DNA of 64,000 nt from Pseudolysinimonas sp. (lineage in GTDB: Bacteria > Actinomycetota > Actinomycetes > Actinomycetales > Microbacteriaceae), in the NCBI GenBank assembly GCA_036499485.1, contig DASYDQ010000032.1, forward strand, positions 17,576 through 81,575, written 5' to 3'. Position numbers and translations under genes: made by a program. This document shows positions 18,895-29,972 of this stretch, one piece after another (position 1 is the first letter of the stretch; each line of letters starts with the position of its first letter). The notes beneath the pieces are model-generated. The model worked only from the letters and a program-made list of their open reading frames with translations, was not told where the DNA came from and did not search any database.

Positions 18895-21312
18895 ATGACC
18901 TTCGTTCTGGACGCCTTCGACGGGGATCCAGGCACCGCGCCCGGCGGCGCTCCCTCGCCCGACGAGGCTCTGCTCGATGGACTCAACCCCCAGCAGCGCG
19001 AGGCCGTGCTCTACCGGGGCCAGTCTCTCCTGATCGTCGCGGGAGCCGGCTCGGGCAAGACCAGCGTGCTGACGCGCCGCATCGCCGGGCTCATCCAGAC
19101 CCGAGAGGCGTGGCCGAGCCAGATCCTCGCGATCACCTTCACCAACAAGGCGGCGGCCGAGATGCGCGAACGGGTTCAGGCCCTCGTCGGTGGCGCCGCC
19201 GAGGGGATGTGGATCTCCACCTTCCACTCCGCGTGCGTGCGCATCCTGCGTCGGCAGGCCGAGGTCATGGGCATGAAGCAGGGCTTCAGCATCTACGACT
19301 CGGCAGACAGCCGCGCGCTGATCAAGCGCATCCTGAAAGAACTGGATGCCGACACCCTCGGCTTCACCCCCGGCAACGTGAGCGCCAAGATCTCGAAGCT
19401 GAAGAACGAGCTGACCGATGCCGAGAGCTACTCGCGCAACGTCAACTCCGACGACCCGAACGACGTGGCGTTTCTCGAGATCTTCCGCCGCTACTCGGCC
19501 GGCCTGCGCCGAGCGAACGCGTTCGACTTCGACGACCTGATCGCCGAGACCGTGCACCTCTTCCGGGCCTTCCCCGACGTGGCGGCGCTCTACCAGCGAC
19601 GGTTCCGGCATGTGCTGGTCGACGAGTATCAGGACACCAACCACGCGCAGTACGCGCTGATCCGTGAGCTCGTGCGGCCGATCAAGCCGCAGAACGTGCC
19701 CGAAGACACCCGGATGCGCGTGGACGCGAACGGCGGCATCCCGGGCGCGTCGCTCACCGTGGTCGGCGACTCCGACCAGTCGATCTACGCCTTCCGCGGC
19801 GCCGACATCCGCAACATCGTGGAGTTCGAGCGCGACTTCCCCAACTCGAAGACGATCCTGCTCGAGCAGAACTACCGCTCGACGCAGAACATCCTCGATG
19901 CCGCCAACGCCGTGATCGGCAACAACTTCGATCGCATCGCGAAGAACCTGTTCACCACCGTCGGCTCGGGCGACAAGATCGTGGGCTACACCGGGTACAC
20001 CGGTCACGACGAGGCGCAGTTCGTCGCCGACGAGATCTCGACCCTGCACGACGGCGGCGAGCGCTACAGCGACATCGCGGTCTTCTACCGCACGAACTCG
20101 CAGACCCGGGCGCTTGAGGAGATCTTCATCCGCTCGGCCATCCCCTATCGGGTTCTCGGCGGCACCAAGTTCTACGAGCGCGCCGAGATCAAGGATGCGA
20201 TGGCCTACCTGATCCAGGTGGCCAACCCGGCAGACGACCTGGCCCTGCGTCGCATCATGAACGTGCCCAAGCGCGGGATCGGACCGGCGACCGAGGCCGC
20301 GCTGCAGGCGCATGCCGACCGGGTTGGGGTGCTGCTGCGCGACGCGCTTCCGGATGCCGGTGATCTCGGCCTCGGACCGAAGGTCACCACCGCGATCCTC
20401 GACTTCGCCGCGATCATGGACGAGGCGTCGGATTCGGCCGCGACCACCAAGCCCGCCGACATCCTGACCACGATCCTGAACCGCACCGGCTACATCGACG
20501 CGTTGCGCGCCACGCGCGACCCGCAGGACGAGGCGCGCATCGAGAACGTCGAGGAGCTCGTCGCGGTCACCAAGGAGTTCGCGCGCAACAATCCGGAGGG
20601 GACCCTCGTCGACTTCCTCACCGAGGTGTCGCTGGTCGCCGCCGCCGATGAGCTGGATGACTCGAGCGGCACGGTCTCGCTGATGACGCTGCACACCGCG
20701 AAGGGCCTCGAGTACGAGTCGGTGTTCCTCACCGGCATCGAGGAGGGTTTGATGCCGCACCAGATGTCCACCGGCGAGCCCGGCGGCCTGGCCGAGGAAC
20801 GCCGCCTGTTCTACGTCGGCATCACGCGCGCCAAGAAGCGGCTCTACTTGTCGCTTGCCATGACCAGGTCGACGTTCGGCGACACCAGCGTCGCGATGCC
20901 GAGCCGCTATCTGCAAGAGATCCCGGCCGAGCTCATCGAGTGGCGGCAGAGCCCCGGTGCGGCGACCTCGCGCAACGGGACGCGGTCGCGGGCGCTGAAC
21001 GGGCGCTCGTCGTACGGCAGTTCCACAGCCGGGTCGGAGCGGTTCGGAGTGAACTCGCTCGCCCCGGCTCCGTCGAGGGTCAAGACCGAGTGGACCTCGC
21101 CCGTGACCAACAAGGTGCGTGACAACGGCGACCTCACGCTGGCGGTGGGAGACCGCATCCGGCACGCCGATTTCGGCGAGGGACGCGTGAGCGCCGTCAC
21201 CGGCGAGGGCACCAAGAGCATCGCCGAGGTGCAGTTCGAGCAGGCCGGTCGCAAGCGGCTTCTGATCAAGATCGCGCCGATCGAGAAGCTGTCGGCGCCT
21301 GTGGATGACTGA
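18895..21312 (+). CDS. pcrA: ATP-dependent DNA helicase PcrA/UvrD1
   Basis: AGAGSGKT, TFTNKAA, VDEYQD, GDSDQSIY, QNYRST, TLHTAKGLE, EERRLFYVGITRA; C-terminal Tudor-like domain. Confidence 0.95.
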   Translation: MTFVLDAFDGDPGTAPGGAPSPDEALLDGLNPQQREAVLYRGQSLLIVAGAGSGKTSVLTRRIAGLIQTREAWPSQILAITFTNKAAAEMRERVQALVGGAAEGMWISTFHSACVRILRRQAEVMGMKQGFSIYDSADSRALIKRILKELDADTLGFTPGNVSAKISKLKNELTDAESYSRNVNSDDPNDVAFLEIFRRYSAGLRRANAFDFDDLIAETVHLFRAFPDVAALYQRRFRHVLVDEYQDTNHAQYALIRELVRPIKPQNVPEDTRMRVDANGGIPGASLTVVGDSDQSIYAFRGADIRNIVEFERDFPNSKTILLEQNYRSTQNILDAANAVIGNNFDRIAKNLFTTVGSGDKIVGYTGYTGHDEAQFVADEISTLHDGGERYSDIAVFYRTNSQTRALEEIFIRSAIPYRVLGGTKFYERAEIKDAMAYLIQVANPADDLALRRIMNVPKRGIGPATEAALQAHADRVGVLLRDALPDAGDLGLGPKVTTAILDFAAIMDEASDSAATTKPADILTTILNRTGYIDALRATRDPQDEARIENVEELVAVTKEFARNNPEGTLVDFLTEVSLVAAADELDDSSGTVSLMTLHTAKGLEYESVFLTGIEEGLMPHQMSTGEPGGLAEERRLFYVGITRAKKRLYLSLAMTRSTFGDTSVAMPSRYLQEIPAELIEWRQSPGAATSRNGTRSRALNGRSSYGSSTAGSERFGVNSLAPAPSRVKTEWTSPVTNKVRDNGDLTLAVGDRIRHADFGEGRVSAVTGEGTKSIAEVQFEQAGRKRLLIKIAPIEKLSAPVDD

Positions 21313-21387
21313 ATGTCATGTTTGCCCAGACTGTGACATTCTGGGTGGGTACTTCCTTCCGTCTCAAGCGCATGTTGAGGAGTCGTC

Positions 21388-21678
21388 GTGGCCGTTTACA
21401 AGGTGTCGTCCGAGGTCCTGTCCGGGGCTGCCAGTCAGTTGACCGCGGGATCGGGCGAGGCGCAGGAGCTGCTCGTCCGGCTGCGCAAGCTGGTGGAGTC
21501 GTTGGGCAGCGACTGGGAGGGCTCGGGAGCGGGCGCCTTCAACGACCTGTACCACGAGTTCAACACCGCGGGCGGTCAGCTGACCGAGGCCCTGGACGGG
21601 ATCGCGTCGCTGCTCTCGAAGGCGGCGGGCTACTACGCGGAGTCCGAGACCAACGTCGCGAACGCGTTCCGCAGCTGA
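21388..21678 (+). CDS. WXG100 family T7SS protein (EsxA/YukE-like)
   Basis: 96 aa, central WEG, C-terminal YAESE (YxxxE) signal; GAGGAG RBS. Confidence 0.92.
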   Translation: MAVYKVSSEVLSGAASQLTAGSGEAQELLVRLRKLVESLGSDWEGSGAGAFNDLYHEFNTAGGQLTEALDGIASLLSKAAGYYAESETNVANAFRS

Positions 21679-21708
21679 GCTGCTGAGCGAGGGTGATGCA
21701 GGCGGCCC

Positions 21709-22026
21709 ATGTCTGAATTGCGGGTAGCGTCCGACGCGGTTCGCGACGCCGGAGCCCGGGCTCGCGCTCTCATGCAGGAGTTCGCGGAAGGTGTGAGCGA
21801 GACCGATCGGATGTCGGCGAACCTCGTGAGCACCTGGACCGGCCCGGCGTCCGCATCGTTCCTGGCGGGGTGGACGGAGTGGGCACGCGGGGCGTCGGAG
21901 GTTCAGACGGCTCTCGCGGGCATCGCCCGACTGCTCGGCGAATCGGCTGACCAGTACGAGAGCACCGAGTCGGCGGTCACGCAGGTGTCGAAGGACTCGT
22001 CCGTGACGGTGGGCGGCGAGCGATGA
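21709..22026 (+). CDS. WXG100 family protein (EsxF-like)
   Basis: LRV..., WTG, GWTEWARGASEVQ, YESTE (YxxxE). Confidence 0.88.
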   Translation: MSELRVASDAVRDAGARARALMQEFAEGVSETDRMSANLVSTWTGPASASFLAGWTEWARGASEVQTALAGIARLLGESADQYESTESAVTQVSKDSSVTVGGER

Positions 22027-22307
22027 CGCGTTTCCGGGTGGACACCGACGAGCTGGATCGCGCCGTTGCCGCGATCGCCGCGTTGGCGGCGCTGAGTGAG
22101 AAGCTGCTGACCGAGGTCGACGCGCTCGCTGCCGCGGCATCGGCGGAGTGGTCGGGTGAGGCCAATGCGCAGTTCGTCGCGCTGAAGGCCGAGTGGGCGC
22201 AGGGGGCCAGACTCATGTCGGAGGGCATCCGGACGATCCATCAGGCGGCGACCGCCTCACACGGCAACTACGTGCAGAGCTCGGCCGCCGCGAGCCGGCT
22301 CTGGTGA
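22023..22307 (+). CDS. WXG100 family protein (EsxE-like)
   Basis: FRVD, WSGEA, WAQGARLM, SHGNY...LW C-terminus; ATGA overlap with the upstream gene. Confidence 0.88.
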   Translation: MTRFRVDTDELDRAVAAIAALAALSEKLLTEVDALAAAASAEWSGEANAQFVALKAEWAQGARLMSEGIRTIHQAATASHGNYVQSSAAASRLW

Positions 22308-22314
22308 GGCACTG

Positions 22315-23970
22315 ATGGTCTCGTTGCTGGTCGACACCCTCTCGTTCGTCGAGGCGGGTTCTCAGGCGGCCGAGGTGGCCCGGTCGGTGGATCGAGCGCT
22401 GTCGCGCGCGGCATCCGGCCTGGGCCGTTTGAGTCACATGGCAGGGTCGGACTCGAACGGGCTGAAGTGGGCGGGGGCCTATGACCAGGCCGCCGGGCAG
22501 CTGTTCGGCTACGCCGCCCAACTGCACGACGCGACGTCGACGGTCGCGCGCAACCTCACTGCGACCGGCTACTACTACGAGGTCGCCGAGATCACGAACG
22601 CCGGGCAGACGGTGGAGCTGGTGCTGCCCGCCCCGATCCTCGAAGCGAGCTGTCCCTACCTCCCGTCAGCCGCGGGCGGTGCGCGGGTGTTCCCGAACCC
22701 GAACCCCGCCTTCGAATGGATCGCCGAGCAGATCGCCAACCTGATCGGCGACATGTGGCCGGACGGCGACACCACCAAGCTGGACGAGGCGTCCAAGGTG
22801 TGGCACGCCTTCGCCGACGACCTCGATGACGTCGCGTCGGGCCTGTCATCCGTGAAAGGCGCTCTCGACGGGGTCGACACCCCGGAGCTGCCACGCGTGC
22901 ACGACTCCATCGACCGCGTCCGCACCTTCGCGAAGAAGCTGGCCACCGCATCCCGCGACCTCGGCACCGCAGCCAACCAGCTGTCGGGCAAGATCGCTTA
23001 TGTCCACACGCAGACCGAGATCACGGTCGGGATCACGATCGGCGTGATCGCGGCGACCGTCGCGGCGGCGCTGGGGCTGACGGTCTTCACCTTCGGGATC
23101 TCGGACGCGGCCGGAGTGGCGGGCGTCGCCGGAGAGACGGCGGGCGCCGTCGCCACCATCACCGGATTCATCGGCGAACTGGCGGCCACGATCTCGTCAG
23201 CGGTCGGCGGCATCGTCGCATCGACAGCAGGCCTGGTGGGGATCAGCGCCGACATGGCCGCGACGATCGGGGTGACCGTCGGGGACGTCAGTGCGACCGC
23301 CGTGCTGTGGGGCTTCGCCGGAGCAGCCGAGAACACGATCGTCACGGGAGTCACCGAGCCCGGCAGCGACCTGTCCGAGGCCGCAGGTGAGGGCTTCATC
23401 AGCTGGGGCATCGGCGGCGCGCTCGGCGGTGCCCTGGGCGGTGGGCTCGGCAGGACCGTCGAGTTCGTCGGCGGAGAGGGTGTCGCCGGGACGGCCGGCG
23501 CCGCCGAAACCATCAGCGGTCTGTCCCCGGAGATCACGCACGGCGTGCGATTCTTCGGCCAGGAGCAGCTCAAGTACTACACGGGCGCGAACGCGACCCT
23601 GGGGCGCGCGGGCGATGCGATCTTCTTGATGCCCGAGCAGGACGCGGGCTCCGTGCTGAACGGCATCGATGCGGCCATCAAGTCCGGCTTGGCGCCGAGC
23701 GTCACGAACGCCGCGCGCACCGGGGGGGACATCTATGGCGTGGTGGTGCCGCTCGACGGGATCGCGACGCGGGTCCCGACCATCGCGGACGCGAACGGCT
23801 GGCCCCACTTCAGCCTCGGCGGCCACACCGGGGTGAACATCGACGGCATCCAGTTGTTGAACGACACCCGCGAGTTCGTCGTCGATGGCGGCATCGACCT
23901 GCCACCTGGGACGATGGCCTTCAAGTTGCTGGATGGTGGTGCATGGGACATCGTGGGGATGGTGGGCTAG
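22315..23970 (+). CDS. T7SS polymorphic toxin: CpnT-like N-terminal domain, hydrophobic Gly/Ala-rich linker, unknown C-terminal domain
   Basis: MAGSDSNGLKWAGAYD, YYEVAE, PSAAGG, MWPDGDTTKL motifs as in the CpnT N-terminus; about 150-aa globular C-terminus. Confidence 0.82.
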   Translation: MVSLLVDTLSFVEAGSQAAEVARSVDRALSRAASGLGRLSHMAGSDSNGLKWAGAYDQAAGQLFGYAAQLHDATSTVARNLTATGYYYEVAEITNAGQTVELVLPAPILEASCPYLPSAAGGARVFPNPNPAFEWIAEQIANLIGDMWPDGDTTKLDEASKVWHAFADDLDDVASGLSSVKGALDGVDTPELPRVHDSIDRVRTFAKKLATASRDLGTAANQLSGKIAYVHTQTEITVGITIGVIAATVAAALGLTVFTFGISDAAGVAGVAGETAGAVATITGFIGELAATISSAVGGIVASTAGLVGISADMAATIGVTVGDVSATAVLWGFAGAAENTIVTGVTEPGSDLSEAAGEGFISWGIGGALGGALGGGLGRTVEFVGGEGVAGTAGAAETISGLSPEITHGVRFFGQEQLKYYTGANATLGRAGDAIFLMPEQDAGSVLNGIDAAIKSGLAPSVTNAARTGGDIYGVVVPLDGIATRVPTIADANGWPHFSLGGHTGVNIDGIQLLNDTREFVVDGGIDLPPGTMAFKLLDGGAWDIVGMVG

Positions 23971-24185
23971 CCGACCTTCCGGGACCCGGATGCGACTACT
24001 GCCGCTCCGGGTCGACGACGCAGACGGAGATCCCCTTGCTGAATCTTGGACTGGCGATCGACCAGAAGAGCGATGTGTTCCGATGCGTCGTCTGCGGCAC
24101 CTTCTGGGACGAGGGTGAAGCCTATCCACGACGAATTTCTCTCAACCGCGCGCGAGCGCTCCTCCCCGATCTGGAGCTGTCATGA
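23943..24185 (+). CDS. Small CxxC-CxxC zinc-ribbon protein, putative immunity protein
   Basis: GCDYCR...FRCVVCGTFW; overlaps the toxin 3' end and is coupled to the next gene by ATGA. Exact start uncertain. Confidence 0.65.
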   Translation: MGHRGDGGLADLPGPGCDYCRSGSTTQTEIPLLNLGLAIDQKSDVFRCVVCGTFWDEGEAYPRRISLNRARALLPDLELS

Positions 24186-24586
24186 CCGAAGACATCCCGA
24201 CGACGCCGTTCGAAGAAGCGCTCGTTCGCGGCGCACGGCAGGAGGAGTCGCTGGCCGAGATCCTCGGCAAGTTCTGGAACGAGTTGCTCGTCGTCCCATC
24301 CGGCGCGGATGTGTCCGTCGCTTCGAACACCCTCCAGCCGGTACTGTTCGCGCGGGAGTCGGATCGCATGATGGCCGTCTACACCGATTTCGGCCGTATC
24401 CCCGGTGACATCTCAAGCAAGGCACCCTATGCGGTGCGCCTTCATGGCCGGGATCTGCTGCGAGGGGTTCAGCCCGGGGTCGGACTGGTGGTCAATCCGG
24501 GAACGACGTGGGGATTCGAGATCCTTCCCAGCAGCATCCCGGCGATCGTCGCCACATTCGGCCAGACCCCGACGGAAAGCGCCTGA
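24182..24586 (+). CDS. SseB-family protein, putative immunity protein
   Basis: FEEAL..., LLVVPS, MAVYTD, GRDLL...GLVVNPG...FEI pattern; GGAG RBS. Confidence 0.75.
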   Translation: MTEDIPTTPFEEALVRGARQEESLAEILGKFWNELLVVPSGADVSVASNTLQPVLFARESDRMMAVYTDFGRIPGDISSKAPYAVRLHGRDLLRGVQPGVGLVVNPGTTWGFEILPSSIPAIVATFGQTPTESA

Positions 24587-24610
24587 GGGCGACCTGGCGG
24601 GAAAGGCCGG

Positions 24611-27600
24611 CTAGTCCGGCAGCTGCAGCAGCGTCAGCTCGCCATCACCGAGGTTCGCGAGCCCCCGGCCCGGCTGCACGCCGGTGCTCAGGCTCGACCG
24701 AGACAGGCGTGCGCCCACCAGCTCGCCGTCGCTGATGCTCTGCGGGCTGAGCAGGATGCCGCTGCGGTTCTTGCGGATCTCCACCTGCCAGCCGCTGAAT
24801 CCGCCCGCGACCTGCGAGCTGTCCCCGCCGAGGACGATTCCCACGCCGCGGTCACGGGCGCCGCGCACCAGATCCTTCAGCCAGTCCTTCGCCGCGACAT
24901 CCCGCAGCAGCTCCCCGTCGTCCACGATGAGCACCCGCTTCGTCGCGCCGTCGAACAGGGGCGCGAGCTCCGCCTCGGTGAGCTCGCTCCCCGTGAGCAC
25001 GGCGGCGACGCCCGACGTCCCCTCCAGCGCTCGCAGCGGCGAGGGACGGGGCGCGAGCACGACGATCGATGCGCCGCCGTCGAGCAGGGTGCGGGCCATC
25101 GTGGCGAGCACGGTGCTGCGGCCTGATTTGGCCGGGCCGGCCACCACAAAGGTCGGAACGCCCTCGAACAGGTTCACCCCGTGGCCGCGCAGTTCGTCGC
25201 CGCCGACTCCGACGAGGGCCCAGCCGGCTGCCCGCTGCTCGTCGCCGGTGCGCGCCAGGGCGTCGGCGAGAGTCAGGGTGGTCGGCAGCGCATCCAGCCG
25301 GAAGGGGCGCCGGGATGCCTCGAGCCCGGCGTCGCGGCTGGTGGCGCGTGCCGCGATCTCTCGAAGGGCCGCCGCCTGGGCCGCCCCGGAGGGATCGGGC
25401 GCCAGCAGTGCGATCTGCAGCTCCACGGCGTTCTCGGAGCGGAACGCCCGGCCGGGCGGGATGTCCTCCGGCAGTTTGCGCGGGTTCAGGTTGGCGAGCG
25501 AATAGTCGGAGCGCTCGGTGAGTCTCAGCATGAGCTTGCTGTCGACCAGGGTCGAGATGCGCCCCGACAGCAGCTGCCGGTCGCCGGTGATGATGAGGTG
25601 GATGCCGACGCTCGCTCCCTCGCGAAGCAAGAACTGAACCTGGTCGACGAGTGCGCCGTCGTCGACGGTGCCGAGGCTCGTCAGGAAGCCCTCCCACAGG
25701 TCGATCAGCAGGAGGATGTGCGGCAGTCGCGCCGCGGCACCGGCTGCCCCGTCCACTGCGGCCCTTCGCTGCTCCGCGAGATCGGCGAAGCCTCCCGAGG
25801 AGAGCACGCCCTGGCGGGTGGCGACCTCTGCGAGGAGGCGGGCGAGGAGGCGCTGCACGCGATCCACCTGGTGGCGCTGCGCGATCGCGCCGGAGTGCGG
25901 GAAGTCGGCGAGAGGCAGAAGGGCGCCGTTGCCGCAGTCGATGCCGTAGATGTGCAGGTCGCTCGCCCTGACACGCGCGGCGCCCACGCCGGCGATGGTC
26001 CGAAGTGTCTGACTGCGCCCCGAGCGCGGAGCCCCGATCACGAAGAGATGGCCGAAGACGTCCAGATCGATGAGTGCGGGCTTCTGCAGCTGCTGGCTCG
26101 GGTGATCCTCGATGCCGTAGGAGAAAGCGGCGGGGTCGGCCCCGAAGGCCCGCACGAGCGACTCGATCGTCACCTCGTCGGGCAGGGCGGGCAGCCACGG
26201 CTCGGGCTGCTCGGCGATCCCGAGGCGCTCGGCGGCGCCGCGGATCGCCGCGACCAGCGCCCGCAGGTCGGTGTCGCCGGCCTCGCTCCGGGTGGCCTCG
26301 GCCCGGGCGGCCGTCGGGGCCGGATCGGCGAGCTCCGCGAGCGTCATGGTGCGGATGAGCGGCTCGGCCCCCGCGTCCCGGCCGTTCGACGTGCTCGGCG
26401 TGCCGGGGCGGCGGCCGCCGACGCGGCCGGCCTGGAAGGGCACCAGCGAGCTCGCACCCAACCGCACGTAGGCACGGCCGGGCGTCGACTTGCTGATGCG
26501 GGCGGCATCCGGGGCATCGATGACATCGGTGCTCTCCGACGCGTCGGTGACCCGGAGCGCGATGCGCAGGTTCGTGTTGGCCCGGATCTCGGGCGAGACG
26601 ACGCCGCTCGGCCGCTGCGTCGCCAAGATCAGATGGATGCCAAGCGACCGCCCCCGTTGCGCGATGTTCACCAGTCCGTGCACGAAGTCGGGCAATTCCC
26701 GGGCGAGCGAGGCGAACTCGTCGATGACGATCGCCAGGCGCGGGATGGGGGCCAGGGTCGCCTGCCGGGCACGCAGATCGAGATAGTCGGGCAGATCCTT
26801 TGCGCCGGCCGCGGCCAGCAGGTGCTCGCGGCGGCGCAGCTCCGCGCCGAGGGACTCGAGAGCCCGCTCGACCAGGTGCGTGTCGAGGTCGGTGACCATG
26901 CCGACGGTGTGCGGGAGGTCGACGCAGTCCTTGAACGCGGCGCCGCCCTTGTAGTCGACGAGCACGAAGTTCATCTCGTCGGGCCGGTTCGCGACGGCGA
27001 GCGAGGCGACCAGAGTCTGCAGCAGCTCGCTCTTGCCCGAACCGGTCGTGCCGGCGATGAGTGCGTGCGGGCCGTCGACGCTGAGGTCGATCGAGAACGC
27101 CCCGTCGATCGATTCGCCCACCACGGCCACCGTGCTGCGGGGCGAGCGCTGCCACCCGGCCGCCACGGCGTCGGCGGTCGGCGGATCGAGGTGGAGCACG
27201 TCGAGCAGGCGGCTCGAGTTCGGGATCGACCCGTCGCCCTCCTCCGGGCTGGCGTCGTGGATCGGTGCGATGCCGCGCGCGACCCAGTCCAGCCAGTCGT
27301 CGTCGATCAGATCGGGGCGGATGCCCTTCAGCACGTCGACGCGCTGCTGACGGATGACCAGTCCTTCGGCATCCGCGATGACCACCGCCGTGCACTCCTC
27401 GGGCAGCAACCGTTCGTCGGAGTCGACGCACAGGCTGTAGATCCCGACCGACGGGCCTTCCTTCAGCACCCGCACCAGGCCGGGCATGCTGCGCATGCGG
27501 CGTGCGCCGTCGATCACGACGACCACCTCGGACCCGGTCCACTGGCCACCGCCGTTGCCGGCGGACTCCTGCCGCGCGTCCAGCAGGGCCACGAGCTCGG

Positions 27601-29014
27601 CGATGCGGCGCGCGGTGCTCGACGCCGTGACTCCGAGGGTGGTCATCGTCTCCTGGCCGAACGCGGGCTGCACGTGGGGGAGCCACGACATCCAGTGCCA
27701 GGGCTTCTGGCCCGAGGCATCCGTCAGCAGGTACAGCTGCACATCGCGGGGGCTCTGCAGAACGGCGAGTTGGGCGACCGCCCATTGCGCGAGGCGTCGT
27801 GGCCGATCGCCCCAGCCCGCGATGCCGACGACCCCGCGCTCGCCGAGCTGGAACACGGCGGGCGCGTCCCGGGCATCCCAGGTGACCGTGCGGCGGTGCT
27901 CGAGCTGCTCGGGGTCGTCCAGGGTCACGCGCGAGGGCTGCGTCGCCGTCCCGACCCGGATGCGCAGGTGGTCGGGATCGGAGTTGCGCCGCTCCCACAA
28001 CCGGGGCAGCGGGCGGGTGGCGATCTCGGCGAGTTCGGCCGGATCGGGCGCGTTCCGGAGCAGCTCGGCGCGCTCGGCGACCAGGGCGGCGGCGGCATCC
28101 GATTCGATGACCGCCTTGTGCGTGCGGTACTCGGCCGCCTCGGTGCGCCGTGATTTCTTACCCGTGCGTTTGTCGGTGAGGTAGTTCGCGACGATCGTCA
28201 CCGGCGACAGGGCTGCGATCAGCAGGAAGTAGTAGTTCTTGAGGAGGAGGGCCGAGGCCCCGGCGATGACGAGCGGAAGGATCGCGGCCAGGATCGGCAG
28301 CGGCCGGGCCTTCTGATCGCGCGGGGGAGCAGGCAGCCGCAGCGAGGTGCTGGTCTCGGGCGGGAGGATGCGGGGCGGCCGGTTGTAGTCGATCCCGCCG
28401 CCCTGTTCCGAGGGAACGAAGGCCGCAAGGTCGTCATCTGGGCGCGCCAGCTCGATCAGGCGGCCGGCGATCGAGATCTGCCCGCCGGCGGGCCACGCCG
28501 TGGCGACGGATGCCGCGATCTCGTCGCCGTCGAGGGTGGCGGCGGTCTCCGCTCCTGCCGGCCGCACCGTGACGGAGTCCGCTCCCGCGATGTCGACCAC
28601 GAGCTCGATGGGCGCGATCCGCGAGCGGTCGTCGATGCGCAGTGCGGCATCCGGCGATGAACCGATGGTGACGATGCCGCGCCAGGCATGCAGCGTGGTG
28701 CCAGCTCCCTCGCCCGAGACGATGCGGAACTGCACCAGGGCGTCCTCTGGGGTCGTCTCCCAGGCGGCGAGGGCGGCGCGCGGTCCGATCACCACCGAGC
28801 TGCCCTCGCGCATCCCCGCCGTGGTCAGCGGTTCCGTCATCGGGACCACCCGGCCGTCGACCAGCAGGGCGAGCGCCGAGCCACCGGGATCGGCTCCGAC
28901 GGCCGCGGCGAGCTTCGGCACGATCTCGGTGAGCGCTGCGGACTCCTCCGCCTCGAGCAGGACGTCGCTCGCCGAGCCGGTGCGCGCATCCGACACGGAG
29001 ATCATCAGGCGCAT
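24611..29014 (-). CDS. EssC/EccC-like FtsK/SpoIIIE T7SS coupling ATPase (ubiquitin-like + FHA-like + 2 TM + D0 + 3 ATPase domains)
   Basis: YNRPPR, RLWERR, DGPHALIAGTTGSGKSELL, LVDYKGG, IVIDEFA, GRSLGIHLILATQRP, PWLPALP, GAPRSGRS, GPAKSGRS. Confidence 0.92.
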   Translation of the reverse strand: MRLMISVSDARTGSASDVLLEAEESAALTEIVPKLAAAVGADPGGSALALLVDGRVVPMTEPLTTAGMREGSSVVIGPRAALAAWETTPEDALVQFRIVSGEGAGTTLHAWRGIVTIGSSPDAALRIDDRSRIAPIELVVDIAGADSVTVRPAGAETAATLDGDEIAASVATAWPAGGQISIAGRLIELARPDDDLAAFVPSEQGGGIDYNRPPRILPPETSTSLRLPAPPRDQKARPLPILAAILPLVIAGASALLLKNYYFLLIAALSPVTIVANYLTDKRTGKKSRRTEAAEYRTHKAVIESDAAAALVAERAELLRNAPDPAELAEIATRPLPRLWERRNSDPDHLRIRVGTATQPSRVTLDDPEQLEHRRTVTWDARDAPAVFQLGERGVVGIAGWGDRPRRLAQWAVAQLAVLQSPRDVQLYLLTDASGQKPWHWMSWLPHVQPAFGQETMTTLGVTASSTARRIAELVALLDARQESAGNGGGQWTGSEVVVVIDGARRMRSMPGLVRVLKEGPSVGIYSLCVDSDERLLPEECTAVVIADAEGLVIRQQRVDVLKGIRPDLIDDDWLDWVARGIAPIHDASPEEGDGSIPNSSRLLDVLHLDPPTADAVAAGWQRSPRSTVAVVGESIDGAFSIDLSVDGPHALIAGTTGSGKSELLQTLVASLAVANRPDEMNFVLVDYKGGAAFKDCVDLPHTVGMVTDLDTHLVERALESLGAELRRREHLLAAAGAKDLPDYLDLRARQATLAPIPRLAIVIDEFASLARELPDFVHGLVNIAQRGRSLGIHLILATQRPSGVVSPEIRANTNLRIALRVTDASESTDVIDAPDAARISKSTPGRAYVRLGASSLVPFQAGRVGGRRPGTPSTSNGRDAGAEPLIRTMTLAELADPAPTAARAEATRSEAGDTDLRALVAAIRGAAERLGIAEQPEPWLPALPDEVTIESLVRAFGADPAAFSYGIEDHPSQQLQKPALIDLDVFGHLFVIGAPRSGRSQTLRTIAGVGAARVRASDLHIYGIDCGNGALLPLADFPHSGAIAQRHQVDRVQRLLARLLAEVATRQGVLSSGGFADLAEQRRAAVDGAAGAAARLPHILLLIDLWEGFLTSLGTVDDGALVDQVQFLLREGASVGIHLIITGDRQLLSGRISTLVDSKLMLRLTERSDYSLANLNPRKLPEDIPPGRAFRSENAVELQIALLAPDPSGAAQAAALREIAARATSRDAGLEASRRPFRLDALPTTLTLADALARTGDEQRAAGWALVGVGGDELRGHGVNLFEGVPTFVVAGPAKSGRSTVLATMARTLLDGGASIVVLAPRPSPLRALEGTSGVAAVLTGSELTEAELAPLFDGATKRVLIVDDGELLRDVAAKDWLKDLVRGARDRGVGIVLGGDSSQVAGGFSGWQVEIRKNRSGILLSPQSISDGELVGARLSRSSLSTGVQPGRGLANLGDGELTLLQLPD

Positions 29015-29065
29015 GCCCGAAGTCTATTGATCCTCACTGTGTCGCCCCGTGGGCATACTGGAGCC

Positions 29066-29446
29066 ATGGCATCCGTGATCGAATTCACCCTCAATGGCGA
29101 CCAGGCAGCCGCACGAGACACCGTCATGTCTGCGACCGCCTCTCAGGGCTTCGCCGCCCAGTCGACCAACGAGTGGAGCTACCTGCTCACCCGCGGCAAC
29201 AACACCAAGACGCTGCTGCTCGGCGCAATGGCCGGCAAGGACTTCTACCTCAAGTTCGGGGTGGACTTCTCCGTCGCCGGCGACGGATTCATCGCGCGGC
29301 TCTCGCGCGACGTCGCCGGCAGCGCGCTTCGCGGCGGGGTGATCGGGGCGTCCAAGGCCTCCGACGTCTTCCAGCAGCTGGCGGATGCCGTCGGCGCCGC
29401 CGCCACCCAGGCGGGCATCTACGTCGCGAACCGCACGGTCTCCTGA
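29066..29446 (+). CDS. Hypothetical protein divergent from the T7SS ATPase
   Basis: 126-aa ORF with high-GC codon bias; CATACT -10-like hexamer 6 nt upstream of ATG. Confidence 0.7.
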   Translation: MASVIEFTLNGDQAAARDTVMSATASQGFAAQSTNEWSYLLTRGNNTKTLLLGAMAGKDFYLKFGVDFSVAGDGFIARLSRDVAGSALRGGVIGASKASDVFQQLADAVGAAATQAGIYVANRTVS

Positions 29447-29456
29447 CCCCGGCTCC

Positions 29457-29972
29457 ATGGACGCCGACGAGCTCGCCGCACTTCGCGCGTCCGGCGCGCT
29501 CGCCGAGACGCGGCTGACCCCGCCGCCCGCCGTCGGGTCGCCCGCCGCGCGGCGCGCAACGGCCTCGCCGTTCGCCGGTCCGGATGCCGCATCCCGCCCC
29601 GCACGCGCCGAGCACCCGGTCGCGGCTCCTGCGGCGGTCGCGTCGAACGTCGAGTTGCAGCTCTCCAGTGGAGAGCACCTCCGAGTCGCCGGTCGCGGCG
29701 TGATCGGCCGCGACCCCTCTGAGGCGCCGGGCGCCTACGCACACCGGATCACCCTGGCCGACACCGAGAAGCTGCTGTCGCGTGCGCACCTCGAGTTCGG
29801 GTTGGAAGGGAACGGGCAGTTCTGGATCTCCGACCTGCATTCGACGAACGGGGTCGTCGTGGAGCGGGCGGGGCAGGCTCCGCAGCGCTGCCTGCCCGGC
29901 TACCGGGTCGTGATCCAGCCGGGCGATCGGGTCATGTTCGGGGGCCGCATCCTGACCATCACGGCGAGCTGA
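29457..29972 (+). CDS. FHA domain-containing protein
   Basis: IGRDP, LSRAH, DLHSTNG, GDRVMFG: canonical pThr-binding motifs; Pro/Ala-rich N-terminus. Confidence 0.85.
   Translation: MDADELAALRASGALAETRLTPPPAVGSPAARRATASPFAGPDAASRPARAEHPVAAPAAVASNVELQLSSGEHLRVAGRGVIGRDPSEAPGAYAHRITLADTEKLLSRAHLEFGLEGNGQFWISDLHSTNGVVVERAGQAPQRCLPGYRVVIQPGDRVMFGGRILTITAS

What the first reader, a model, noticed from the sequence alone, without database searches (positions are those of the whole stretch)
21388..29972. Minimal hybrid type VII secretion locus: EsxFE/CpnT-like substrates beside a single ubiquitin-FHA-fused ATPase
Seen: three WXG100 genes, a toxin carrier and two small coupled genes converge on one 1467-aa FtsK ATPase, with a divergent hypothetical + FHA pair behind it, all between pcrA and padR-sucCD. 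No eccB/eccD/eccE/mycP (T7SSa) or esaA/essA/essB (T7SSb) genes occur in this 64 kb. Established: the M. tuberculosis esxF-esxE-cpnT operon depends on ESX (T7SSa) systems, whereas FHA-bearing EssC and a homodimeric EsxA are T7SSb traits. Inference: this is a stripped-down T7SS variant for interbacterial competition that mixes both lineages, possibly needing only the ATPase plus WXG100 proteins. Related variants may already be catalogued bioinformatically.
Basis: partly seen in the sequence, partly recalled or inferred. Interest (0 to 1): 0.85.

Follow-up and report, generated by a model that had tools for sequence, protein, structure and literature searches.

The report
Third-lineage secretion motor with toxin cassette
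This locus pairs a type VII secretion motor from a widespread actinobacterial lineage that is neither the tuberculosis nor the Staphylococcus type with a swappable cassette carrying a likely antibacterial toxin and its predicted antidote, and it probably borrows its membrane partners from elsewhere in the genome rather than working alone.

Summary
Genes confirmed. The 1467-aa ATPase has a ubiquitin-like domain, an FHA fold lacking the phosphothreonine motif, two membrane helices and three P-loops. It is not a T7SSa/T7SSb hybrid: it lies in a separate actinobacterial clade (97/98). Grouping it with EccC or with Olsenella-type TsdC is rejected (AU p≤0.0002). No EccB, EccD, MycP, YukD, EssB or EsaA was found in this 76%-complete genome, and 42 of 76 genomes carrying the motor have no EccD match. 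'ATPase plus WXG100 only' is unproven. 48 of 56 relatives with full flanks have a membrane or surface partner gene nearby. This genome also holds a complete Esr sensing cluster with a second, short EccC on contig C34. The WXG100x3-carrier cassette was swapped in. Its C-terminus is a Pfam-unnamed polymorphic-toxin domain (197 clusters, also on RHS carriers). The 80-aa CxxC gene lies just behind it in 6 of 6 other genomes (one copy broken) and is predicted to bind it (0.82 vs best control 0.04). The scan noted this ATPase family four times before on other DNA, and FHA-fused EccC appears in a 2026 preprint. Verdict: new variant of a known kind.

The parts
21388..21678 (+). WXG100 protein, 96 aa, WEG hinge and C-terminal YxxxE; likely the EsxA-like core substrate (93-96% identical to the copies in sister G004)
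21709..22026 (+). WXG100 protein, 105 aa, WTG hinge and YxxxE; likely co-secretion (Lap-like) partner of the carrier
22023..22307 (+). WXG100-like protein, 94 aa, WSG hinge, no YxxxD/E; sits directly before the carrier in the other copies; likely second Lap-like partner
22315..23970 (+). Polymorphic toxin carrier, 551 aa: helical PF25547 N-terminus, hydrophobic Gly/Ala linker, and a C-terminal ~150-aa toxin domain (residues ~405-551; invariant E520, conserved D443, D492, H498, GGxT, NxxRE) with no Pfam or PDB match
23943..24185 (+). 80-aa CxxC...CxxC protein overlapping the toxin stop; predicted cognate immunity protein
24182..24586 (+). SseB_N protein, 134 aa; accompanies this toxin family but is also kept behind a different toxin tip in G004, so likely an accessory rather than the cognate immunity
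24611..29014 (-). Type VII ATPase, 1467 aa: ubiquitin-like domain (1-80), FHA fold without the pThr motif (90-195), two TM helices (236-280), a non-catalytic EccC-type domain, and P-loops at 655 (intact, Walker B at 761), 994 and 1293
29066..29446 (+). 126-aa soluble hypothetical protein; conserved beside the locus within the genus only; function unknown
29457..29972 (+). Stand-alone FHA protein, 171 aa, with intact GR / SRxH / STNG motifs and a Pro/Ala-rich N-terminal arm holding a TPPP also seen in G004 and Curtobacterium; candidate phospho-switch

Best explanation
The locus encodes the membrane ATPase of a third, actinobacterial lineage of type VII secretion (ubiquitin-like and FHA domains fused in front of an EccC-type motor) beside a swapped-in cassette that likely exports a polymorphic antibacterial toxin, and the motor probably uses surface and phosphorelay partners supplied in trans by the genome's Esr cluster. 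Shown: gene content, domain architecture, clade position, cassette swap, toxin-tip variability and toxin-immunity gene linkage. Inferred: the ATPase hexamerises through its two TM helices to form the pore. Its fused ubiquitin-like domain does in cis what YukD/EsaB or the EccD ubiquitin domain does elsewhere. The WXG100 proteins bind the carrier's helical N-terminus and present YxxxE signals to the ATPase domains. The toxin domain acts on a neighbouring cell (competitor or epibiont), and the CxxC protein blocks it in the producer. The adjacent intact FHA protein could couple the Esr kinase to the motor.
For: Architecture: FHA E 3e-7; FHA Z 15.2, rmsd 2.2, 102 aligned; YukD 7 of 70 and ubiquitin 6 of 70 family members. 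Lineage: 18 Ubl-FHA-family rows form one clade (97/98). Clade A + Olsenella-type TsdC is rejected (p 0.00024) and clade A + EccC is rejected (p 9e-6). The protein is below all three NCBIfam cut-offs. Independence from ESX: no EccD- or MycP-like gene in 79 of 79 related loci, and no EccD match in 42 of 76 genomes. G015 and G033 (99% complete, no EccD or EccB match) have WXG100x3 + PF25547 toxin carriers beside a motor of the family. Partners: 48 of 56 full-flank loci have a membrane, surface or kinase partner gene within 10 kb, and 73 of 76 genomes have at least one of a dead-motor-domain membrane protein, EsrA, TsdI or EccD. This genome has the full Esr set plus a 973-aa EccC. In Schaalia, an Esx-linked Esr pathway is needed for effector secretion (bioRxiv 10.64898/2026.09.08.750141). 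Toxin: domain within 20 aa of the C-terminus in 118 of 121 homologues, and on RHS carriers. Different tips on the same N-terminus in G004 and G015. Immunity: linkage in 6 of 6 genomes; predicted complex 0.82 vs best control 0.04.
Against: No secretion or killing was measured. EsrA occurs in 20 of 20 Microbacteriaceae tested, including 4 without the full-length motor, so its presence does not show dependence; the near-complementary split between EsrA and the dead-domain membrane protein follows taxonomy. The motor's own FHA lacks the pThr motif, so a direct phospho-link is not given. The cassette converges on the motor instead of sharing its operon, and the short C34 EccC could be the exporter instead. 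Compact plasmid cassettes without any partner gene exist. Three genomes (G037, G043, G051; a more distant branch) have none of the four partner types. The genome is 76% complete. The toxin's chemistry is unknown.
Confidence: 0.5

Rival explanations
1. Truly minimal system: the self-contained motor (its own ubiquitin-like and FHA domains, two TM helices) plus WXG100 proteins is enough to export the toxin across the membrane; partner proteins seen elsewhere are regulators or cell-wall add-ons.
For: The same motor clade sits beside unrelated partner sets: a dead-domain membrane protein in Streptomyces and Micromonospora, kinase-TsdH-TsdI in Bifidobacteriaceae, Tad operons, or none. So no single partner is universal. 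8 of 56 full-flank loci, including 4 Curtobacterium, have none nearby. Plasmid cassettes of 5-7 genes lie beside IS elements or a recombinase. The fused ubiquitin-like domain removes one need for EccD or YukD.
Against: 73 of 76 genomes hold some partner set. The studied T7SSa and T7SSb systems use further membrane proteins (PMC11217815 introduction). The hosts of the plasmids may supply partners; they were not searched.
Confidence: 0.28
2. The cassette is cargo of a conventional or reduced ESX (EccC/EccD) machine lying in the unassembled quarter of the genome, and the neighbouring motor is incidental.
For: Genome 76% complete. Sister G004 carries eccD (with YukD domain) and an EccC-clade ATPase in the same pcrA-padR island.
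Against: The contig is continuous across that site in this genome and lacks those genes. G004 has no EccB match. G015 and G033 have the same kind of cassette with no EccD or EccB match at 99% completeness. Of the 5 same-genus genomes searched, only G004 has EccD.
Confidence: 0.1
3. Decaying island: the motor lost its native cassette and no longer secretes; the cassette persists only as an immunity reservoir.
For: The clade's usual helical partner, T7SS_signal substrate and ~210-aa companion (each in 40-42 of 56 full-flank loci) are not found in this genome. Broken motors occur among relatives (L124, L134).
Against: All nine frames are intact. The block 21298-29026 is 87.6% identical to G004 with every frame kept. 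The Walker A and B motifs of domain 1 are intact.
Confidence: 0.12

Closest known systems
Esr-linked Esx system of Actinomycetales (Wang et al. 2026, bioRxiv 10.64898/2026.09.08.750141; read: abstract, introduction, results, discussion, bioinformatics methods, supplementary legends; supplementary tables not seen)
   Same: EccC-type ATPase, WXG100s and helical-bundle effectors, linked to an Ig/MoxR/vWA/transglutaminase/kinase/phosphatase/FHA pathway. FHA-to-EccC fusions are reported. This genome has the full Esr set on C34, and the ATPases of Esr-adjacent loci fall in the same large clade as the window's.
   Different: Here the motor is unlinked from Esr, its FHA is degenerate, and it carries a ubiquitin-like domain (the word does not occur in the paper). 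The cargo is a folded polymorphic toxin with immunity, not a disordered AesB-type effector. Whether the Schaalia EccC is in this clade was not tested.
T7SSd (Garrett, Higginson and Palmer 2024, PMC11217815; main text read to the reference list, supplement not readable)
   Same: Actinobacterial, FHA-bearing ATPase, no EccB/D/E/MycP or Ess genes, no separate ubiquitin-like gene. Bifidobacteriaceae loci with kinase, TsdH-like and TsdI-like genes carry an ATPase of the window's clade.
   Different: The ATPase beside a 1654-aa TsdI-type gene (Olsenella type) is only 29% identical, keeps the pThr motif, has no ubiquitin-like domain and groups with EssC/TscC. The window has no TsdD, TsdH or TsdI.
T7SSb (EssC/YukB + EsaB/YukD + EssA/EssB/EsaA; LXG toxin-Lap-immunity cassettes)
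   Same: FHA in front of the TM helices, without the pThr motif; toxin carrier with two small helical partners and a downstream immunity gene.
   Different: One FHA plus a fused ubiquitin-like domain; EssC model score 551 vs cut-off 778; no EssB or EsaA found; separate clade.
T7SSa/ESX and the mycobacterial esxF-esxE-cpnT operon
   Same: WXG100 genes ahead of a helical carrier with a C-terminal toxin; the same carrier N-terminus bears a TNT domain in G015.
   Different: No EccB, EccD or MycP found; ATPase outside the EccC clade; three WXG100 genes; the toxin tip is not TNT.

Membership tests
Type VII secretion (general) | FtsK/SpoIIIE ATPase with two N-terminal TM helices and multiple P-loop domains | tested here: met
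   (T. curvata-type EccC 4nh0 E 9e-110; YukB 9qks E 5e-106)
Type VII secretion (general) | Linked WXG100 substrates | tested here: met
Type VII secretion (general) | ATPase-dependent secretion | not testable with these tools
   needs a deletion mutant and secretome
T7SSa / ESX | ATPase in the EccC clade and above the EccCa/EccCb cut-offs | tested here: not met
   392/509 and 319/347 bits; AU p 9e-6
T7SSa / ESX | EccB, EccD and MycP in the locus | tested here: not met
   absent from the continuous locus; EccD- and MycP-like genes in 0 of 79 related loci
T7SSa / ESX | EccB, EccD, EccE and MycP elsewhere in the genome | tested here: inconclusive
   none found but the genome is 76% complete; EccE control did not ring
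T7SSb | ATPase above the EssC cut-off and in the EssC clade | tested here: not met
   551/778 bits; separate clade
T7SSb | EssB, EsaA, EssA and a separate EsaB/YukD | tested here: not met
   absent from the locus; EssB, EsaA and YukD not found in the 76%-complete genome; EssA not searched
T7SSd | TsdC-clade ATPase with a conserved pThr FHA motif | tested here: not met
   29% identity, motif degenerate, AU p 0.00024. The reference TsdC was taken from metagenome loci identified by the 1654-aa TsdI and gene order, not from the paper's accession list
T7SSd | TsdD, TsdH and TsdI in the cluster | tested here: not met
   absent from the locus; TsdH-like and TsdI-like not found in the genome
Esr-linked Esx | Complete Esr pathway in the genome | tested here: met
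   C34:22662-40682: FHA-like, PP2C, kinase, 1977-aa Ig/FnIII, MoxR, DUF58, transglutaminase, zinc-ribbon/FHA, short EccC; matched by domain content, not by alignment to the Schaalia proteins
Esr-linked Esx | Esr adjacent to, or controlling, this ATPase | tested here: inconclusive
   not adjacent; control cannot be tested by sequence; EsrA in 20 of 20 family genomes regardless of the motor
Polymorphic toxin system | Variable C-terminal domain on a constant carrier, shared with other carriers | tested here: met
Polymorphic toxin system | Tightly linked cognate immunity gene | tested here: met
   6 of 6 genomes, one copy broken; predicted binding 0.82 vs best control 0.04
Polymorphic toxin system | Toxic activity and its chemistry | not testable with these tools
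   needs expression assays; fold model unusable
EsxE/EsxF-CpnT | Orthology of the WXG100s and carrier to the M. tuberculosis proteins | not tested
   no M. tuberculosis sequences were compared; only PF25547 and a TNT tip in G015 were seen

The most novel reading that the evidence does not exclude
A one-protein type VII translocon: a motor that has absorbed the ubiquitin-like and FHA subunits and alone forms a working export pore. It moves on plasmids, plugs into unrelated partner sets (Esr, TsdD/H/I, Tad-linked or a dead-motor membrane protein), and accepts swapped-in toxin cassettes, here an unnamed toxin fold with a zinc-ribbon antidote. Its ~50%-identical relative in Streptomyces coelicolor and S. 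lividans would make the minimal requirements of type VII secretion directly testable.
Probability: 0.28. Interest if true: 0.82.

Novelty: new variant of a known kind. Interest (0 to 1): 0.5.

Why it matters
Which parts of a type VII machine are really needed is an open question, because only the ATPase and WXG100 proteins are shared across subtypes. This lineage spans Streptomyces, Micromonospora, Curtobacterium, Promicromonospora and Bifidobacteriaceae. It scores below the curated EssC and EccC cut-offs, and NCBI names its members only 'FtsK/SpoIIIE domain-containing' or 'cell division protein FtsK'. It offers a compact test case in laboratory streptomycetes. It also suggests that some loci filed as T7SSd lack a ubiquitin-like gene because the domain is fused to the motor. 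The cassette adds a polymorphic toxin domain with no Pfam or PDB match and a predicted CxxC immunity protein.

Tried and rejected
Hybrid origin of the motor: rejected by tree and AU tests. T7SSd membership: first suggested because Bifidobacteriaceae TsdD/H/I-type loci carry this motor; rejected once an Olsenella-type TsdC was fetched. Whether the bifidobacterial motors are nested inside the clade or sister to the rest is unresolved (AU p 0.21). SseB as cognate immunity: disfavoured because it is kept behind a different toxin tip in G004; not folded. Structure of the toxin domain: the model from a 5-row alignment had pLDDT 41.5 and was not searched; a 74-row profile found nothing credible in the PDB (best E 0.03). 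An ADP-ribosyltransferase-like reading of the invariant glutamate is only a resemblance recalled from memory. The ubiquitin-like domain was not folded alone, so the fold searches tested only the FHA; hhalign to YukD gave only 40% probability. The protein atlas gave no answer. The EccE search was uninformative. The MycP-like hit in G004 lies among housekeeping genes, not in an ESX cluster. The promoter and terminator scan gave nothing usable, and GC content does not mark the locus as foreign. The first alignment run for the tree timed out. Literature searches found no paper describing a ubiquitin-like/FHA-fused type VII motor. Subscription papers on Streptomyces ESX are outside the library, and the supplements of both key papers were not seen; either supplement may list members of this clade.


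Full report
Observation. A 126-aa hypothetical and an FHA gene are divergent behind it, between pcrA and padR-sucCD. The window lies in a 2.54-Mb, 76%-complete Microbacteriaceae assembly; the closest named homologues of the ATPase (70-85%) are from Pseudolysinimonas.

The motor. It has two TM helices (236-280) and P-loops at 655, 994 and 1293, with an intact Walker B at 761. A model of residues 1-330 from 70 rows (pLDDT 85) shows a beta-grasp topology at 1-80 and an FHA at 90-195 (Foldseek E 3e-7; Z 15.2, rmsd 2.2 over 102 residues). Seven of 70 members match YukD and 6 match ubiquitin; hhalign to YukD gave 40% probability. The ubiquitin call is therefore likely, but was not fold-searched alone. 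The FHA has GS where the phosphothreonine motif (recalled: GR, SxxH, NGT) has GR, and lacks the rest. The separate FHA gene at 29457 keeps the motif. The protein scores below the EssC, EccCa and EccCb cut-offs.

Lineage. Trees were built on the segment spanning the non-catalytic domain and ATPase domain 1: 97 rows by FastTree, 68 rows by IQ-TREE, and a 28-row careful tree. In the last, the ubiquitin-FHA motors and the short Esr-linked EccCs form one clade (97/98), apart from EccC (100/98) and from EssC, TscC and an Olsenella-type TsdC (100/100). Holding the window's subclade with TsdC or with EccC is rejected (p 0.00024 and 9e-6). The tool flagged uneven composition in nine rows and a long outgroup branch. 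The TsdC reference came from metagenome loci found with a 1654-aa TsdI-like protein, the length the paper gives for O. uli TsdI. Six Bifidobacteriaceae loci with a TsdI-like gene, five also with kinase and four with TsdH-like genes, carry a motor of the window's subclade (40-43% identical). It includes a 50%-identical S. coelicolor/S. lividans protein. So this is not a T7SSa/T7SSb hybrid but a third lineage.

Is it minimal? In the own genome EccB, EccD, MycP, YukD, EssB and EsaA were not found. Among 79 related loci (80 fetched, one duplicate of G001 dropped) none holds an EccD- or MycP-like gene. Of the 56 with at least 22 kb of sequence, 53 have a WXG100, 40 a small helical partner, 42 a T7SS_signal or RHS substrate, 42 a ~210-aa companion and 37 a membrane protein whose cytoplasmic part resembles the non-catalytic EccC domain. 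48 have some membrane, surface or kinase partner and 8 have none.

Across 76 genomes with the full-length motor (80 searched, 4 same-family genomes without it set aside; 2-3 carry broken motors; completeness is not given for the 50 reached through loci), 42 have no EccD match. 34 have the dead-domain membrane protein without EsrA, 28 have EsrA without it, 5 have both, and only 3 have none of these, EccD or TsdI (TsdI was scored from loci only; the dead-domain search scored at most 33 candidates per genome). ESX independence is thus well supported. Self-sufficiency is not shown, but it is not excluded: the split follows taxonomy, EsrA is in 20 of 20 Microbacteriaceae, and compact cassettes ride on plasmids.

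What the window hides. Contig C34 carries an FHA-like protein, PP2C, a Ser/Thr kinase, a 1977-aa Ig/FnIII protein, MoxR, DUF58, a transglutaminase, a zinc-ribbon/FHA protein and a 973-aa EccC that lacks the ubiquitin-FHA front and the third P-loop. This matches by content the Esr pathway of Wang et al. 2026, who report Esr next to Esx in 40% of 3502 cases, FHA-EccC fusions, and Esr-dependent effector secretion that limits Saccharibacteria. The window's stand-alone FHA has a disordered arm with a TPPP also present in G004 and Curtobacterium, a plausible substrate for that kinase. This link is inference.

The cassette is swapped. Sister G005 keeps the clade's usual cassette between the motor and the hypothetical gene; this genome has lost it. 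G004 has three tandem WXG100-carrier cassettes at the pcrA site with different tips, an array of seven similar small genes, and a separate eccD-eccC pair with TNT toxins before padR. G015 has the same cassette type with a TNT tip, and G033 has a WXG100x3-carrier with Ntox15 and ADP-ribosyltransferase domains, each near a motor of the family. Both genomes are 99% complete with no EccD or EccB match. This supports export of such carriers by these motors.

The cargo. Residues ~400-551 match 197 clusters at 50% identity. The domain ends within 20 residues of the C-terminus in 118 of 121 near-full matches among 149 retrieved, with an invariant glutamate. Ten of 21 carriers scanned have RHS repeats. 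It has no Pfam or PDB match. Six of 120 other Microbacteriaceae genomes have the domain. In all six a homologue of the 80-aa CxxC protein lies within about 450 bases downstream (one is broken), with SseB alongside in four. A predicted complex of toxin domain and CxxC protein scored 0.82 against a best control of 0.04; runs agreed in at least 87% of contacts and partner pLDDT was at least 70. That mark was reached by 116 of 157 solved complexes and 2 of 215 mismatched pairs, roughly applicable since my own alignment was used. The interface includes the conserved D492-H498 stretch. This supports binding but does not show it.

Mechanism and verdict. Most likely the motor forms the pore, uses its fused ubiquitin-like domain in place of YukD/EccD, exports the carrier with its WXG100 partners against neighbouring bacteria, and draws on the Esr cluster for surface and regulatory partners (0.5). 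Motor-alone secretion gets 0.28, a decaying island 0.12, and a hidden ESX 0.1. The scan's earlier notes describe the same ATPase family on four other genomes, and one supplied the lead to the Esr paper. New here are the tested exclusion from T7SSd, the co-occurrence counts, the cassette swap and the toxin-immunity pair. New variant of a known kind; interest 0.5.

Noticed in passing
G000:C34:22662-40682 (L006, L003): Complete Esr-type cluster ending in a 973-aa EccC without the ubiquitin-FHA front or third P-loop, followed by alanine dehydrogenase. The same short EccC sits at this place in other Microbacteriaceae (L076, L084, L088, L089), including genomes without the full-length motor; its role is unexplained.
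   Followed up: partly
G000:C45:149800-157600 (L005:3586-11984): Another FtsK-domain system: Hsp70-like, DnaJ/TPR, GrpE, a single-domain FtsK of about 900 aa, two small helical proteins and a glutamine-deamidase toxin fragment in one operon.
   Followed up: no
G000:C45:204980-205234 (L002): Lone WXG100 gene behind a two-component system near groEL, away from any secretion ATPase.
   Followed up: no
L103, L095, L116, L131, L135, L153 (Bifidobacteriaceae): T7SSd-type accessory genes paired with a ubiquitin-FHA motor rather than an Olsenella-type TsdC; suggests motor exchange, and may explain the missing ubiquitin-like gene in some T7SSd-like loci.
   Followed up: partly
G004:C7:207000-251000 (L077, L037, L078, L072): About 44-kb conflict island between pcrA and padR: three toxin cassettes, an array of seven similar ~87-aa genes, orphan toxin tips, and eccD-eccC with no EccB match in the genome.
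   Followed up: partly
L115:8809-9777 and relatives (alignment A5): Membrane protein with an EccC-like non-catalytic domain, often with LysM repeats, beside the motor in 37 of 56 full-flank loci and found in none of 20 Microbacteriaceae genomes of the handle set; candidate core partner in streptomycetes.
   Followed up: partly
L170 (NZ_CP081962.1) and L171 (NZ_CP109482.1): Compact motor-plus-cargo cassettes on a Curtobacterium plasmid and, between IS elements, on a Streptomyces plasmid.
   Followed up: partly
L091, L127, L128, L138 (Curtobacterium): The motor also lies near pcrA, beside a three-gene block resembling phosphoribosyltransferase and NUDIX-regulator genes (read from sequence only), suggesting an old insertion site.
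   Followed up: no
L123:15973-16611 and relatives: ~210-aa soluble companion without a Pfam match in 42 of 56 full-flank loci, missing from this genome; could be a chaperone or immunity family.
   Followed up: no
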